This document shows positions 11,912 through 42,990 of a DNA stretch of 56,818 nucleotides, piece after piece. How positions within the stretch are numbered: position 1 is the first letter of the stretch; each line of letters opens with the position of its first letter. Source of the stretch: a virus (taxonomy: Duplodnaviria > Caudoviricetes). The notes beneath the pieces were generated by a model, which did no database searches, was not told the origin of the DNA, and saw only the letters and a list, made by a program, of their open reading frames with translations. A program made the translations under genes and the position numbers. The stretch is taken from positions 1-56,818 of the IMG/VR virus record IMGVR_UViG_3300017530_000090. One strand, 5' to 3'.

Positions 11912-12345
11912 CCCTTTCGGCCCCAACGGGCGAGTGCGGCCCTTCGGGATTGTTCAGATCGTTGTTCAGGTGTCATTCGGCCAAACCGACCGCCCGCCGC
12001 ATAGAACTCGGCCATCGCCGCCTGACGCCGGACTACTTGTTGTGACGACTGCTTGCGGCCCTTGTGTGTCCGCGACTTTAGCGCGCGGGCTTCGGGTGTA
12101 TTCTGAGCCGCCGACATCCTCGCCCGCGTCACAGCGTTTCGACGGCGACCAAGATGGTGATGACGCTGATGCGCGGTCGTAGTCATCAGCTTCAGGTTCT
12201 CCAGCCGATTATCGGTGATGTCACCGTTCCGATGATGAATCACATGGTCATCCGGGACGGAACGGCCGTTGGCCTCTTCCCATACCAATCGATGCTCTCG
12301 AACACCATTGCGGCTAGGATACGTCGCCATAACAACCCTCGGCAT
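11908..12345 (-). CDS. HNH endonuclease with NUMOD3-like basic tail
   Basis: EHRLVWE...IHHRNGDITDNRLENL...H...H; TRARMSAAQ. Confidence 0.88.
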   Translation of the reverse strand: MPRVVMATYPSRNGVREHRLVWEEANGRSVPDDHVIHHRNGDITDNRLENLKLMTTTAHQRHHHLGRRRNAVTRARMSAAQNTPEARALKSRTHKGRKQSSQQVVRRQAAMAEFYAAGGRFGRMTPEQRSEQSRRAALARWGRKG

Positions 12346-39755: not shown

Positions 39756-40042
39756 TACTCCTCATCGTGATCGCACTCGTTCTCGCTGATCCCGCTGTGC
39801 GCACACACGTGCACATCATGGGCAACCGTGGCCATGTCGAAGTCGCTATTGAGATGGCCGGTGAGGGCCTTGGCCGCCGCATCGTCCACGGACGTAGCAC
39901 GGACAAGAATTGCGTAGTGGGTGTCGATGTCCACTAGGTACTCGTCACCTTCTCCGGCATCCTGATCGTCCTGCGGCCCCACCGGAAACTGTTCGATGAC
40001 AGCGGGGCCGGGTGCGCGAGACAACTCATCATGTTGGTTCAT
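39755..40042 (-). CDS. acidic hypothetical protein
   Basis: GGAGG RBS, ATGA coupling. Confidence 0.7.
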   Translation of the reverse strand: MNQHDELSRAPGPAVIEQFPVGPQDDQDAGEGDEYLVDIDTHYAILVRATSVDDAAAKALTGHLNSDFDMATVAHDVHVCAHSGISENECDHDEE

Positions 40043-41793
40043 GCGTTCCTCCCTTTCAAGCGCTGTAGCGCAATCCCACAGTATTCGCGGCTGATGTCGA
40101 TCCCAATGAAGCCGAAGCCCTCCTCCGTGGCCGCAACCAGTGTTGAGCCACTGCCACAGAACGGGTCAAGCACTACGCCATCCGGCGGCGTTACCAGACG
40201 GACGAGCCAGCGCATCAGGGCGATGGGCTTGACCGCTGGATGCGTTGCGGGACTTCCGGCGTTGCCGTTTAACGTCAACCGCATCCCGGATCGAACACGC
40301 CCGACAACGGGAAGAGATACCGACCTTTCGACGATAATACTCAGTTTCGGACTGAAGTCGTCCGCACTTTCGGCACGGCTTCCACCAGATTCCTTCTCGG
40401 AGTTCGCACCCACCGTGTAGTCGCTTGTGAGTGAGCGCGTCAACCAACTCAAGGTTCCCGATTCGGTTGTCGAGTTTGTCTTCATTTCGATGGTGGAGTT
40501 GGTATCCTGGAGGGATGGAGCCACAGTGCCGCTCCCAAACAATAACGTGCTCCATTCGTTGGTGTCCCCCAACCCAAATGCGTCGATAACCTTTGGGGGT
40601 GATGGTGCCGTATCCACCAGGAGCTTTGCTTCGCGGGCCTCGCCTTCCCATGACTCCCATTCTAGCAAAACAAGCTCAAGATCATCAAGCCCTTGTTCGC
40701 GTTCCTTCTTCGTGGCCTTTGGACAATACTTAAACCTTGTTACGGAGGCCGCTGCCCCAGCTTCCGTATCAGAGTATCGCATGGTGGCGAAGAAGCGCGA
40801 CACGCCCGCAACTTGCTCGTCCAGCATCCCGGCCGGGCAATCCGGCTGATGGATGAATCCGCCACCTTCGCGGCGCGGGCCGGGCTTAGCAGCAAGATTC
40901 GTGACCCCCCTTCTGTCGTAGCGGCGCTCCTGCGACCGTTCTCCACGGCGTTTGCGCACCTTCTCCGGCACCGGCTGCGGATCGTCGCACGTGCATTGCA
41001 GCACGACATTAGCTGGCCAGCGACCCTTTTGCTCTGGGCGCTCAAACTCGGAGCGTTGCCCGCCGCCTTGCGCCTTACCAGCCAATCGCCCAGAGCGGGA
41101 CGTGGTGCGGCCCTGTGGCTTCGCCGAAGCCTTGTCCGCCTCGCCCTGGTACTCCAGGCGCGTTGTATCAATGTTGAGCGCTCCCGTGCCAAACTTGAGC
41201 ACATTGGCCGCAACGTTCTGCTCAGCCAAGGGCTTGCGCGCCAACAGGATCGGCTCGACCGAGGGCTTGAGGCCAGTGCCCCATCCCGCCCACTGTTGTG
41301 CGTCCTCCGTCGTCAACTCCACCGACCCGCCGGTGTCACTGATTAGCGTGCCTTCCGCGTCTCCACTAAAACGATGACGGGTGCAATTGCCGAGATCGCG
41401 GTCGGGACGGCGCGCGGCCCCAATCGTCTGTAGCTTTTCCACGGCCTGGCCGACATTGTAGGACTTGGGCATCCCCTGCCCATAGAGCCAGAGCAACGCA
41501 TCGCGCACCTCGAAGCCCGCATCCTCGACGGCGCACCACATCCGGTGATGCGTGCGGGCGCCGCCGAACACGACCATGTGGCCACCAGGCTTCAGGACGC
41601 GCAGACATGCCTCCCAGGTCGCGGCCCGGAACGATACGCCCCGGTCATCCCACGCCTTGCCCATAAATTTTAGCTCGTAAGGCGGATCAGTGATGATGGC
41701 TTCCACCGATTCATCCTCCAGCCGCGCTAGGGCATCCAGGATGTCGCCCTCGATGATGAGGCCGTCCATCTCGTCCAACCAGTGCTGCCTCAT
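40039..41793 (-). CDS. DNA methyltransferase (beta class, N6-A/N4-C) with a ~140-codon overprinted insert
   Basis: TDPPY, GTGLKP..EPI, GRWPAN, SRFF, HPAVKP, LDPFCGSGST. Confidence 0.93.
   Translation of the reverse strand: MRQHWLDEMDGLIIEGDILDALARLEDESVEAIITDPPYELKFMGKAWDDRGVSFRAATWEACLRVLKPGGHMVVFGGARTHHRMWCAVEDAGFEVRDALLWLYGQGMPKSYNVGQAVEKLQTIGAARRPDRDLGNCTRHRFSGDAEGTLISDTGGSVELTTEDAQQWAGWGTGLKPSVEPILLARKPLAEQNVAANVLKFGTGALNIDTTRLEYQGEADKASAKPQGRTTSRSGRLAGKAQGGGQRSEFERPEQKGRWPANVVLQCTCDDPQPVPEKVRKRRGERSQERRYDRRGVTNLAAKPGPRREGGGFIHQPDCPAGMLDEQVAGVSRFFATMRYSDTEAGAAASVTRFKYCPKATKKEREQGLDDLELVLLEWESWEGEAREAKLLVDTAPSPPKVIDAFGLGDTNEWSTLLFGSGTVAPSLQDTNSTIEMKTNSTTESGTLSWLTRSLTSDYTVGANSEKESGGSRAESADDFSPKLSIIVERSVSLPVVGRVRSGMRLTLNGNAGSPATHPAVKPIALMRWLVRLVTPPDGVVLDPFCGSGSTLVAATEEGFGFIGIDISREYCGIALQRLKGRNA
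40166..40651 (-). CDS. HNH endonuclease nested in an alternative frame inside the methyltransferase
   Basis: GYRRI..MEHVIVWE..IPPGYQLHHRNEDKLDNRIGNL..H...H, CRKC...CRAC; own TGCTAGAAT 7 nt upstream. Confidence 0.9.
   Translation of the reverse strand: MGRRGPRSKAPGGYGTITPKGYRRIWVGGHQRMEHVIVWERHCGSIPPGYQLHHRNEDKLDNRIGNLELVDALTHKRLHGGCELREGIWWKPCRKCGRLQSETEYYRRKVGISSRCRACSIRDAVDVKRQRRKSRNASSGQAHRPDALARPSGNAAGWRSA
40659..40667 (-). promoter_or_regulatory. extended -10 promoter for the nested HNH
   Basis: TGCTAGAAT-gggagtc-ATG. Confidence 0.6.
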
Positions 41794-42578
41794 TCGAACA
41801 TTGCCCTCACCCGTGGTTCCGCCACCTCATCGACGAGCTTCTTGTCTAGATCGATGCCAATGGCGTTGCGGCCCAGCTTCAGAGCCGCGAGCATCGTGGT
41901 GCCAGTGCCGACCATTGGGTCGAGCACGGTGTCACCAGGCAGCGCGAATAGATCGATGTACCGTTCCGCCTCCGCTTGCGATTGCGTCCAGCCCTCCGGG
42001 TGCTGGCTCTTGTCCACCGGCTCGCTCGTGGACGTATCGAAGCGCCACCAGCGCGTGAAATGCCCGCGTCGGCAGGAGTGTTGGCAGTTATCGCGGTCGA
42101 GCGTCCAGGCAGGCTGCTCCACGACGATCTCTTGGCCCTCACGGCGACGCTTCTTCCGCTGCATCTTGCCCGTCAACACGCGACAGCCGCCCTCGTCCTT
42201 GAGCTTCTTGCACTCGTCGACGCAAGTGATGTCATACTTTCCCTTGACGAAAATGAGCATAGGCTTCCAGCGACTCTTGACCCGCACCGGGCGCATGAGC
42301 GCGTTGCTGTGAGGTGTGTACAGGCAGTCCACCCAGACGAACTTTAGACCAGCGGAGAGCTTCGCCAGAACAGTAGGTAGGTGATACTGGCCGCTATACG
42401 TCACGAGCAGCCCGCCATCCACCAGCACGCGGGCCGCCAACTCGGCCAGCGGACTCCAGAGATCGAGATATTGTTGGCCATACGGAGGATCGGTAAAGAT
42501 AAGCTCAATACTATCGTCTGGGATGTGCTCCGGCGTGAGCTTGCGGAAATCGCCTCGATAGAAGGTGTAGTCAACCAT
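41790..42578 (-). CDS. DNA methyltransferase (beta class)
   Basis: TDPPY, HP..Q, VLDPMVGTGTT; Cys-rich internal insert. Confidence 0.92.
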   Translation of the reverse strand: MVDYTFYRGDFRKLTPEHIPDDSIELIFTDPPYGQQYLDLWSPLAELAARVLVDGGLLVTYSGQYHLPTVLAKLSAGLKFVWVDCLYTPHSNALMRPVRVKSRWKPMLIFVKGKYDITCVDECKKLKDEGGCRVLTGKMQRKKRRREGQEIVVEQPAWTLDRDNCQHSCRRGHFTRWWRFDTSTSEPVDKSQHPEGWTQSQAEAERYIDLFALPGDTVLDPMVGTGTTMLAALKLGRNAIGIDLDKKLVDEVAEPRVRAMFE

Positions 42579-42990
42579 TGTTATGCCGATTCTTAGTGCG
42601 TGTTTTGTGGCAGTTGGCGCAAACCAAATCGCAATTCTCCAACTCGGCGGCCAACTTCTTCCATCCAAGATCGGTAATCTTACTGTGCGCGGGCAGCACC
42701 GAAGTTCGGCCCCGAATGTGGTCAAATTCAGCGCACTCTGTGCGGCCATCGAACCGCATTGAGCAGTCCGCGCATTGGCCGCCCTTCTGTTCCATAGCCC
42801 ACAGCTTCTTCTGTTGAGCCAGAGCACGGCCGCCGCCCAATCCAGCAGCCCGGCGCTCGCGGTGATAGGATTTATCGCATTCGCGGCACCAATAATGCAG
42901 GCCATCCTTAGAGGAAGTACGACGACCAAAATGCTCGCTCGTTGACGGCTTACTTCGGCCACAGCGCGTACATTCTTTCTTAGCGATCAT
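42571..42990 (-). CDS. HNH-type endonuclease (CANCH subgroup)
   Basis: CTRC..DGL..WCREC; KGGQCADC..FDH..CDLVCANCH; TGTTATACT and GGAGGT upstream. Confidence 0.88.
   Translation of the reverse strand: MIAKKECTRCGRSKPSTSEHFGRRTSSKDGLHYWCRECDKSYHRERRAAGLGGGRALAQQKKLWAMEQKGGQCADCSMRFDGRTECAEFDHIRGRTSVLPAHSKITDLGWKKLAAELENCDLVCANCHKTRTKNRHNNG

What the first reader, a model, noticed from the sequence alone, without database searches (positions are those of the whole stretch)
40039..41793. Intact HNH gene fully overprinted inside a methyltransferase that stays in frame, with no intron or intein
Seen: the MTase ORF runs without a stop from DPPY to the SAM-binding motif. Between KATKKERE and HPAVKP it reads about 140 codons of Ser/Thr-rich off-frame-looking sequence. 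The same DNA, in another frame on the same strand, encodes a complete HNH protein (40651-40166) with its own TGCTAGAAT promoter. No intein termini (Cys/Ser start, HN/GN end) and no obvious group I core flank it. Known: homing endonucleases normally avoid damaging the host gene by sitting in introns or inteins, lying between genes, or splitting the gene. Inference: this is a further strategy, in which the element inserts in a variable loop and keeps the host frame free of stops, so it is tolerated as a disordered insert.
Basis: partly seen in the sequence, partly recalled or inferred. Interest (0 to 1): 0.8.

Follow-up and report, generated by a model that had tools for sequence, protein, structure and literature searches.

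The report
Hidden HNH gene inside phage methylase
A selfish HNH nuclease gene sits in a shifted reading frame inside this phage's DNA-methylase gene, and selection keeps the methylase frame free of stop codons so it can be read straight through; the trick was published in 2025, and this is a new, widespread lineage of it.

Summary
Window 40039-41793(-) is an unbroken 584-aa N6/N4 DNA-methyltransferase ORF. About 441 nt, absent from uninterrupted homologues, lie between KKER and HPAVKP. That stretch encodes a complete HNH_3 nuclease (40166-40651) in the -1 frame.

The window alone is not significant: 40% of synonymous shuffles also lack stops. The family is decisive.
- All 118 embedded copies among 127 related loci keep the methylase frame open.
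- In 55 non-redundant copies (GC 31-60%) there are 0 stops against 66.7 expected. The third frame has 654 against 620.
- Seven free-standing relatives (5 distinct) have 3-7 stops in that frame.

No intron or intein signature was found. The element carries its own promoter: TTGATG-18-TAGAAT, then 7 nt to the ATG. This arrangement recurs strictly in 11 of 52 usable lineages. Presence is patchy on the methylase tree.

Arsenault, Gosselin and Gogarten (2025) described the same design, the 'ShiLan domain', in mycobacteriophage methylases. The window's element uses a different insertion site and a different HNH lineage, and occurs in uncultured phages. This scan has noted the same kind before on other DNA (26 notes). 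Verdict: new member of a known kind. Splicing, translation and enzyme activity remain untested.

The parts
40039..41793 (-). Full-length N6/N4 (beta-class) DNA methyltransferase ORF, 584 aa, with DPPY near the N-terminus and FCGSGST near the C-terminus; open through the insert
   Evidence: PF01555, E 1.2e-31. PDB relatives M.RsrI, CcrM, DpnA and MboIIA match residues 17-80 and 513-580.
40243..40698 (-). Linker plus insert: MTase residues 366-517 (152 aa), where uninterrupted homologues mostly have 5 aa. Net insertion is about 147 codons (about 441 nt). The exact ends within the linker are not resolved.
   Evidence: Alignment A1; linker lengths in 120 homologues; GC dip; mean pLDDT about 54 over residues 371-510.
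40166..40651 (-). HNH_3 endonuclease ORF, 161 aa from the second ATG (an upstream ATG at 40660 gives 164 aa), in the -1 frame of the MTase. It has an HNH core and a C-terminal CxxC...CxxC zinc ribbon. The last ~25 codons run into the conserved MTase C-terminal part.
   Evidence: invariant H56, H57, N69, H78, H82, C96, C99, C119 and C122 in alignment A2; stop position is an outlier at +74 nt.
40659..40688 (-). Sigma-70-like promoter inside the MTase ORF: -35 TTGATG (40688-40683, in MTase codons G-L-D-D), 18-nt spacer, TG-extended -10 TAGAAT (40664-40659), then 7 nt to ATG 40651. This predicts a leaderless or near-leaderless HNH mRNA.
   Evidence: The same TTGAC-17/19-TAnnnT-5/9-ATG arrangement, in frame with the HNH, occurs in 11 of 52 usable non-redundant relatives, against 17 hits in all 422,542 nt scanned including those 11.
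40039..40242 (-). MTase C-terminal part (HPAVKP ... FCGSGST ... end), in frame with the N-terminal part

Best explanation
A mobile, intron-less and intein-less homing-endonuclease cassette sits in the short surface linker of a phage beta-class DNA methyltransferase, between the K..KxER helix and the HPTVKP motif. The cassette is about 441 nt and consists of a promoter, an HNH_3 ORF and a stop.

The HNH is read in the -1 frame from its own start. In the window it most likely comes from an internal sigma-70 promoter whose transcript starts at or next to the ATG, giving a leaderless mRNA.

The methyltransferase is translated straight through the cassette in its own frame. This yields a 584-aa enzyme carrying a roughly 150-residue, poorly structured, Ser/Thr-rich excursion. 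Purifying selection removes any stop codon from that frame.

Shown here: the anatomy; stop-codon depletion across the family; its absence in free-standing relatives; conserved expression signals; patchy distribution. Inferred: that the long protein is made, is not spliced and is active, and that the HNH cuts empty alleles (homing).

The -1 arrangement is the frame in which an Arg/Lys/Gly-rich HNH gene intrinsically makes few stops: about 1.2 expected per copy, against about 11 in the other frame.
For: (1) Same architecture in relatives. Of 127 loci with a homologue of this HNH (window, L001-L003, L012-L134), 118 have the MTase C-part directly downstream in the HNH+1 frame. All 118 are open through the HNH. 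Two more embedded copies cut by contig ends also have 0 stops. In 88 loci the MTase N-part lies in the same open frame.

(2) Stop depletion. 55 copies non-redundant at <85% nt identity, GC 0.31-0.60, have 0 stops in the MTase frame against 66.7 expected from synonymous shuffles. The summed log10 P(0) is -45.3. The third frame has 654 observed against 619.6 expected.

(3) Natural control. 7 free-standing copies (5 distinct), each just downstream of a complete MTase gene, have 3-7 stops in that frame. 2 further copies without an MTase C-part downstream, in genome contigs, have 4 each, while 6 embedded ones there have 0.

(4) No room or signal for splicing. The HNH frame is closed 0-13 codons before its ATG. 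Its stop lies within -7 to +11 nt of the His codon of HxTxKP in 46 of 55 copies. Rfam found no intron in the window or in 15 relatives. Pfam found no Hint/intein domain.

(5) Own expression signals. Promoter in the window. Of 52 usable relatives, 11 (plus 1 loose) have the -35/-10/ATG arrangement and 15 have a Shine-Dalgarno 4-9 nt before the ATG.

(6) Mobility. 46 of 120 MTase homologues carry the insert. At least 18 changes are needed on the tree, 12 of them forced by well-supported branches. The window, P0002 and P0003 lie in three separate supported sub-clades of a 38-row clade that is otherwise empty. Yet their inserts are 74-77% identical, against 54-60% for the N-parts.

(7) AlphaFold2: MTase core pLDDT is 86-98 at both ends, and the insert blocks are 35-78.

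(8) The same design is published for another HNH and site (PMC11855218; sections 1, 3 and 4 and legends read).
Against: For the window alone the open frame is compatible with chance (P 0.40).

No transcript, protein or activity data exist, and no public sequencing run holding this DNA was listed.

The shuffle test treats 55 related sequences as independent.

25 of 52 relatives match neither of my strict promoter or Shine-Dalgarno patterns, so HNH expression signals are not universal or were not recognised.

Selection for an open frame shows only that translation must continue. It does not show that the full-length enzyme methylates DNA; avoiding polarity on downstream genes could contribute.

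Two loci (L019, L043) have the MTase N-part in a different frame upstream of the insert. This may be assembly error or real decay.
Confidence: 0.75

Rival explanations
1. Unrecognised RNA splicing: the insert is a degenerate or novel self-splicing or host-spliced intron whose ORF fills it, and the open MTase frame is incidental.
For: HNH genes are common in phage group I introns (established knowledge; also discussed in PMC11855218 section 3.5). The absence of an Rfam hit cannot exclude an undescribed ribozyme.
Against: A spliced insert would not need an open host frame. Yet 0 stops occur against 66.7 expected in 55 lineages, and free-standing relatives have 3-7. Only about 40 nt at the 5' end and about 0 nt at the 3' end lie outside the HNH ORF, far less than a group I or II core. 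That 5' stretch looks like a promoter.
Confidence: 0.07
2. Neutral accident or decaying gene: a homing endonuclease gene has recently disrupted a dispensable MTase, and the frame happens to be open in GC-rich DNA.
For: For the window alone, 40% of synonymous shuffles have no stop. Phage MTases are often dispensable (argued in PMC11855218 section 4.1).
Against: The family-wide depletion includes copies at GC 0.31-0.40 with per-copy P(0) of 0.004-0.02. HNH proteins have diverged to about 50-65% identity while staying stop-free in the other frame. The DPPY and FxGSG motifs and the C-part are conserved.
Confidence: 0.05
3. Post-translational removal: the insert peptide is excised by a non-canonical protein-splicing or proteolytic step after read-through translation.
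For: This is compatible with the need for an open frame. The published ShiLan work first considered an abnormal intein (PMC11855218 section 3.2).
Against: There is no Hint/intein domain. The MTase-frame peptide is the shadow of the HNH frame: its Ser+Thr content is 22.6% observed against 21.8% in shuffles. Junction residues vary between lineages. There is no conserved Cys/Ser/Thr at the N-junction or Asn at the C-junction (by inspection).
Confidence: 0.05
4. -1 ribosomal frameshift fusion: ribosomes translating the MTase slip into the HNH frame and make an MTase(N-part)-HNH fusion nuclease.
For: The HNH is in the -1 frame of the MTase in every copy.
Against: A stop closes the HNH frame only 0-13 codons upstream of its conserved ATG, and in L055 immediately before it. 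No X XXY YYZ heptamer is visible in the window's 5-codon gap (by inspection). The start Met is invariant in A2. A promoter or Shine-Dalgarno precedes the ATG in about half of the lineages.
Confidence: 0.03

Closest known systems
ShiLan domain: hidden out-of-frame HNH endonuclease in mycobacteriophage DNA methylase gp65 (Gosselin et al. 2023, PMC9957025, passages read; Arsenault, Gosselin and Gogarten 2025, PMC11855218, sections 1, 3 and 4 and legends read)
   Same: The host is a homologous N6/N4 phage methylase; the window protein matches mycobacteriophage methylases at 38-46%. An HNH ORF lies in the third (-1) frame on the same strand, and its stop is at the 3' end of the insert. There are no stops in the methylase frame and no detectable intron or intein. 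The distribution suggests homing. The authors propose the same retained-loop model and leaderless translation.
   Different: The insertion site differs. ShiLan and Murica carry it between ALKP... and EPIVVARKP, equivalent to window residue ~176; the window carries it between KKER and HPAVKP, residues 366-517. The nuclease differs: 195-aa HNH with two zinc fingers against 161-aa HNH_3 with one zinc ribbon, alignable only at 35% over 66 aa. Insert size is 606 nt against about 441 nt. The hosts here are uncultured phages and prophages of several phyla. No close copy was found in 50,697 GenBank phage records. In the parts I read, the papers give no stop-depletion statistics and no promoter.
Pacc40 gp60 hidden ORF (PMC11855218, section 3.6)
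   Same: An out-of-frame nuclease-like ORF of about 160 aa lies in frame +2 of a methylase ORF that stays open. Relatives of that ORF stand free next to methylase genes, as 7 relatives of the window's HNH do.
   Different: There is no detectable sequence similarity to the window's HNH (best pairwise E 1.3). The host protein is a helicase-methylase fusion, and the site differs.
Free-standing and intron- or intein-borne phage homing endonucleases (for example HNH genes in group I introns; gene-splitting insertions such as mobE/nrdA of Aeromonas phage Aeh1, recalled from memory and not checked here)
   Same: A selfish nuclease gene targets a conserved phage gene and is spread patchily among alleles.
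   Different: There is no ribozyme and no protein-splicing domain, and the host gene is neither split nor bypassed. The host ORF is kept intact by dual coding.

Membership tests
Hidden out-of-frame HNH insertion elements in phage DNA methylases (ShiLan-type, as a kind) | Extra segment inside a DNA methylase ORF relative to uninterrupted homologues | tested here: met
   The linker is 152 aa against mostly 5 aa in homologues.
Hidden out-of-frame HNH insertion elements in phage DNA methylases (ShiLan-type, as a kind) | Methylase frame has no stop through the segment | tested here: met
   The family shows 0 stops against 66.7 expected.
Hidden out-of-frame HNH insertion elements in phage DNA methylases (ShiLan-type, as a kind) | Complete HNH endonuclease ORF in another frame of the same strand, filling the segment | tested here: met
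   PF13392, E 5e-14. The frame is -1, as in ShiLan and Pacc40.
Hidden out-of-frame HNH insertion elements in phage DNA methylases (ShiLan-type, as a kind) | No recognisable intron or intein | tested here: met
   Rfam and Pfam found none. Absence of a hit is not proof.
Hidden out-of-frame HNH insertion elements in phage DNA methylases (ShiLan-type, as a kind) | Disjunct distribution among methylase alleles (mobility) | tested here: met
   At least 18 changes on a 120-row tree. The window's nearest rows are all empty. The insert is more conserved than the flanks.
ShiLan domain proper (the published element) | Same insertion site and homologous HNH sequence | tested here: not met
   The site differs. 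Only the HNH core aligns, at 35% over 66 aa.
HNH_3 endonucleases (Pfam PF13392) | Profile match above the curated cut-off with conserved His/Asn/His residues | tested here: met
   52.1 bits against a cut-off of 24.8; invariant H56, H57, N69, H78 and H82.
N6_N4 DNA methyltransferases (Pfam PF01555, beta class) | Profile match; DPPY (motif IV) before FxGxG (motif I) | tested here: met
   110.9 bits against a cut-off of 26.7. The motifs are seen in the translation. PDB relatives are listed. Enzyme activity is not testable here.
Group I/II intron-encoded homing endonuclease | Ribozyme core flanking or surrounding the ORF | tested here: not met
   No Rfam match at E<=1 or E<=0.1 in 15 relatives. 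Only about 40 nt lies outside the ORF.
Intein | Hint splicing blocks in the host frame, with Cys/Ser/Thr at the N-junction and Asn plus Cys/Ser/Thr at the C-junction | tested here: not met
   There is no Hint domain. The window's junctions read ...KKER|EQGL and ...SPAT|HPAV, and junction residues vary among relatives.

The most novel reading that the evidence does not exclude
Dual-coding 'read-through' insertion is a general fourth persistence strategy for homing endonuclease genes, alongside introns, inteins and intergenic or gene-splitting insertion. It is not a mycobacteriophage curiosity. This HNH_3 lineage alone has spread through methylase genes of phages and prophages of several bacterial phyla. 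It is kept stop-free by selection at GC contents from 31 to 60%. It always uses the -1 frame, the frame in which a basic nuclease gene makes the fewest stops. It carries a portable promoter whose -35 box is written in the G-L-D codons that the cassette itself adds to the methylase reading frame, giving a leaderless nuclease mRNA.
Probability: 0.55. Interest if true: 0.6.

Novelty: new member of a known kind. Interest (0 to 1): 0.5.

Why it matters
Homing endonuclease genes are thought to survive inside genes only if an intron or intein removes them. The 2025 ShiLan report proposed a third way on the basis of about ten nearly identical mycobacteriophage copies.

This window belongs to a second, unrelated and much larger lineage, with at least 55 non-redundant copies. 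That lineage supplies the statistical proof of selection on the host frame that I did not see in the sections of those papers I read. It also supplies a natural control (free-standing relatives) and a concrete, testable expression model (internal promoter, leaderless mRNA).

In practice, gene callers annotate these genes as one long methylase and miss the nuclease. The linker between KxxKxER and HPTVKP is also marked as a permissive site for large insertions in beta-class methyltransferases.

Tried and rejected
- Rfam at permissive thresholds found no intron family in the window region or in 15 related loci. The one sub-threshold hit, c4-a1b1, lay on the opposite strand of L020, far from the insert. 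A first attempt with 20 loci exceeded the size limit.
- Public sequencing runs for a splicing or expression test: the first try gave a tool error. On the second try none was listed and no RNA holder was listed.
- GenBank phages: tblastn with the HNH gave only distant free-standing relatives, all <60% identity and none covering >=80%. No record held the long insert-bearing MTase.
- Pacc40 hidden ORF as a relative: no similarity.
- Extra selection on the composition of the MTase-frame peptide: Ser/Thr richness is almost entirely the intrinsic shadow of the HNH frame, 22.6% against 21.8% in shuffles. I therefore do not claim selection for disorder.
- HNH identity against MTase identity between pairs gave r = -0.003. 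The 250-aa MTase segment used is highly variable, and one row (L131) was mis-extracted, so I rely on the tree instead.
- Notes of this scan for this genome: none.
- Complex prediction and the atlas search were not used, because no binding or orphan-protein claim is made.
- Supplementary files of the two papers were not seen. They may list further insert-bearing phages.
Full report
**Observation.** The minus strand of window 40039-41793 is one 584-aa ORF. It matches the N6_N4 DNA methylase family in two stretches (PF01555, E 1.2e-31). Solved relatives are M.RsrI, CcrM, DpnA and MboIIA, which match residues 17-80 and 513-580. A second ORF lies on the same strand at 40166-40660, with HNH codon position 1 on MTase codon position 3 (the -1 frame). 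It matches HNH_3 (PF13392, E 5e-14). Between R365 of KATKKER and H518 of HPAVKP the MTase frame reads 152 residues, 23.7% Ser+Thr. The closest uninterrupted homologues read KKER, then 5 residues, then HPTVKP. GC drops from about 0.64-0.67 to about 0.54 over the insert. The second ATG at 40651 follows after 7 nt. Translation from it gives a 161-aa HNH.

**Is it more than chance?** For the window alone, no. Shuffling synonymous codons of the HNH gene gives no stop in the MTase frame in 40.2% of 1000 trials, with 0.66 stops expected. This is because the DNA is GC-rich and this relative frame is intrinsically poor in stops.

**The family settles the question.**
- Scans with the HNH protein and with a four-sequence alignment (A2) returned 7 IMG/VR loci, 80 metagenome loci kept from 142 relatives and 43 IMG/VR loci.
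- I analysed 127 loci: the window, L001-L003 and L012-L134. I left out L004-L007 as distant hits of 32-55% identity over parts of the protein.
- In 118 loci the MTase C-terminal part follows the HNH directly, always in the HNH+1 frame. In all 118 that frame is open across the HNH.
- In 88 loci the MTase N-part lies in the same open frame. In 26 the upstream DNA is too short to tell. In 2 (L019, L043) the N-part is in another frame further upstream. In 2 (L022, L132) no N-part was detected.
- Of the 9 loci without a C-part, 2 (L038, L123) are embedded copies cut by the contig end, with 0 stops. The other 7 (L053, L060, L098, L124 and the near-identical L078, L114 and L129) are free-standing genes just downstream of a complete MTase gene. 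These have 3-7 stops in the equivalent frame.
- After reduction to 55 copies with <85% nucleotide identity (GC 0.31-0.60), the MTase frame has 0 stops against 66.7 expected from shuffles that keep each gene's protein and codon usage. The summed log10 of the per-copy probabilities is -45.3. The third frame has 654 stops against 619.6 expected.
- The sequences are related, so that probability is not exact. But HNH proteins differ by 35-50%, and the AT-rich copies individually reach P(0) of 0.004-0.02.
- Eight loci from bacterial genome assemblies repeat the pattern. Six embedded copies have 0 stops, among them an Oceanobacillus sojae isolate and MAGs labelled Rhodobacteraceae, Deltaproteobacteria, Bacillota, Bacteroidota and Muribaculaceae. 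Two copies without an MTase C-part have 4 stops each.

**Anatomy of the element.**
- The HNH frame is closed by a stop only 0-13 codons before its start codon.
- The HNH stop codon lies within -7 to +11 nt of the His codon of HxTxKP in 46 of 55 copies, usually built from MTase codons.
- The window is an outlier. Its HNH runs 74 nt further, about 25 codons into the conserved MTase C-part.
- The element is therefore little more than the ORF plus about 40 nt upstream. That leaves no room for a ribozyme core.
- Rfam found nothing in the window at E<=1 and no intron family in 15 relatives at E<=0.1. Pfam found no Hint or intein domain in the long ORF.
- The upstream 40 nt look like a promoter. In 11 of 52 usable non-redundant copies, TTGAC, 17-19 nt, TAnnnT, 5-9 nt and ATG occur in frame with the HNH. 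One more copy matches with a looser -10. The pattern has 17 hits in all 422,542 nt scanned on both strands, those 11 included.
- A further 15 copies have a Shine-Dalgarno 4-9 nt before the ATG. 25 copies match neither strict pattern.
- The -35 box is written in the MTase-frame codons G-L-D. These belong to the insert, since most empty alleles lack them.
- The spacing in the window predicts a leaderless or nearly leaderless HNH mRNA starting at 40651.
- The HNH catalytic His/Asn/His residues and four Cys of a C-terminal zinc ribbon are invariant in A2.

**Mobility.**
- Among the 120 best MTase homologues, 47 including the window show similarity to the insert read in the MTase frame. 46 of them align over at least 100 residues. 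Their linkers are about 148-168 aa, against mostly 4-5 aa and sometimes 34-42 aa in the rest.
- The query contained the insert, so this proportion is biased upwards.
- On a tree built without the insert, presence needs at least 18 changes, 12 of them forced by well-supported branches. Shuffled labels give a mean of 36.9.
- The window's five nearest rows are all empty. The window, P0002 and P0003 lie in three different supported sub-clades of a 38-row clade that otherwise holds 35 empty alleles.
- Their inserts are 74.3% and 77.0% identical to the window's, against 59.9% and 53.9% for the N-parts. Empty alleles reach 66-73% in the N-part.
- This is the signature of horizontal spread into empty alleles, consistent with homing. 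Cleavage itself is untested.

**How the methylase copes.** AlphaFold2 with an 86-row alignment gives pLDDT of 86-98 for the first 100 residues and 89-96 for residues 521-580. The ten-residue blocks over 371-510 score 35-78, with a mean of about 54. Two hairpins are predicted at 372-394 and 483-509. The Ser/Thr richness is a by-product of reading a basic protein's codons one base out of step: 22.6% observed against 21.8% in shuffles over 55 copies. I therefore see no evidence that the peptide itself is shaped by selection beyond the absence of stops. The frame choice has a simple reason. In the frame used, stops require T at the second position of an HNH codon. About 1.2 stops are expected per copy there, against about 11 in the other frame. 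The published ShiLan and Pacc40 elements use the same relative frame.

**Comparison with what is known.** A full-text search found Arsenault, Gosselin and Gogarten 2025 (PMC11855218). I read sections 1, 3 and 4 and the legends. I read passages of the 2023 precursor PMC9957025. They describe the 'ShiLan domain', a 606-nt insert in mycobacteriophage DNA methylases. It has no stop in the methylase frame and encodes a 195-aa HNH in the third frame, with no detectable intron or intein. It has a disjunct distribution, a predicted looping structure and proposed leaderless translation. They describe a second case in Pacc40 gp60. A genome announcement (PMC12613952, passages) annotates one more. A preprint (10.1101/2025.01.02.630785, passages) reports out-of-frame EndoVII-like genes inside inteins. 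Two further searches found no other description.

I fetched ShiLan gp65, the Murica methylase and Pacc40 gp60. The ShiLan insert lies between ALKP... and EPIVVARKP, equivalent to window residue ~176, which is a different site. Its HNH aligns with the window's only over the catalytic core, at 35% over 66 aa. The Pacc40 ORF shows no similarity. No close copy of the window's HNH or of the long methylase is present in 50,697 GenBank phage records.

The window's element is therefore an independent lineage of a published kind. In the parts of the papers I read, I saw no stop-depletion statistics, no free-standing control and no promoter evidence. Their supplements were not available to me.

**Earlier notes of this scan.** I consulted these after my own analysis. 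They list 26 findings of hidden nucleases in methylase genes in at least 24 other genomes. One (e1-6065529) shares short words with this HNH and describes a self-promoted HNH with its promoter and stop written in methylase codons. They agree with my reading, but they are not independent evidence.

**Verdict.** I class the find as a new member of a known kind, with interest 0.5. What remains open is experimental: that the mRNA is unspliced, that the 64-kDa protein is made and is active, where the HNH transcript starts, and what the HNH cuts.

Noticed in passing
window 41790-42990 (-): A second, free-standing HNH gene (42571-42990; PF01844, weak, E 0.0014) ends 5 nt before ATG 42578 of a second N6_N4 methyltransferase (PF01555, E 1.4e-20). 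The MTase ORF is formally open upstream to 42962, through most of the HNH gene in the HNH+1 frame. That frame has 1 stop and the other has 9. This is the 'HNH next to methylase' arrangement also seen for relatives of the embedded element.
   Followed up: partly
window 12151-12300 (-): A third stretch resembles the embedded HNH: 45% identity over residues 33-81, E 3.4e-7, in a 150-aa open frame.
   Followed up: no
window ~40700-40830 (-): Just upstream of the insert, the MTase reads a doubled motif (VSRFFATMRY ... SVTRFKYCPKA) where homologues have a single ASRFFYCPKA. GC already falls from about 40790. This may be a co-conversion tract or an imprecise repair left by the insertion event.
   Followed up: no
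proteins P0019, P0070: Homologous methylases carry other mobile inserts. P0019 (781 aa) has LAGLIDADG_1 (PF00961). P0070 (950 aa) has LAGLIDADG_3 (PF14528) together with the HNH insert. The gene family is a hot spot for selfish elements, as reported for mycobacteriophages.
   Followed up: no
L061, L104; P0006, P0010: In two lineages the insert is flanked, in the MTase frame, by CxC at the 5' end and CxxC at the 3' end. Some empty alleles have a 35-aa Cys-rich linker at the same place. The HNH may have landed inside a small zinc-binding linker that could hold the insert's ends together. The window's insert has no Cys.
   Followed up: no
L053, L060, L078, L098, L124: Free-standing relatives of this HNH all lie immediately downstream of a complete DNA methyltransferase gene. 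This suggests the lineage targets methylase genes in both of its lifestyles.
   Followed up: partly
L019, L043: In two embedded copies the methylase N-terminal part is in a different frame upstream of the insert. This is either an assembly frameshift or real decay of the host gene.
   Followed up: no
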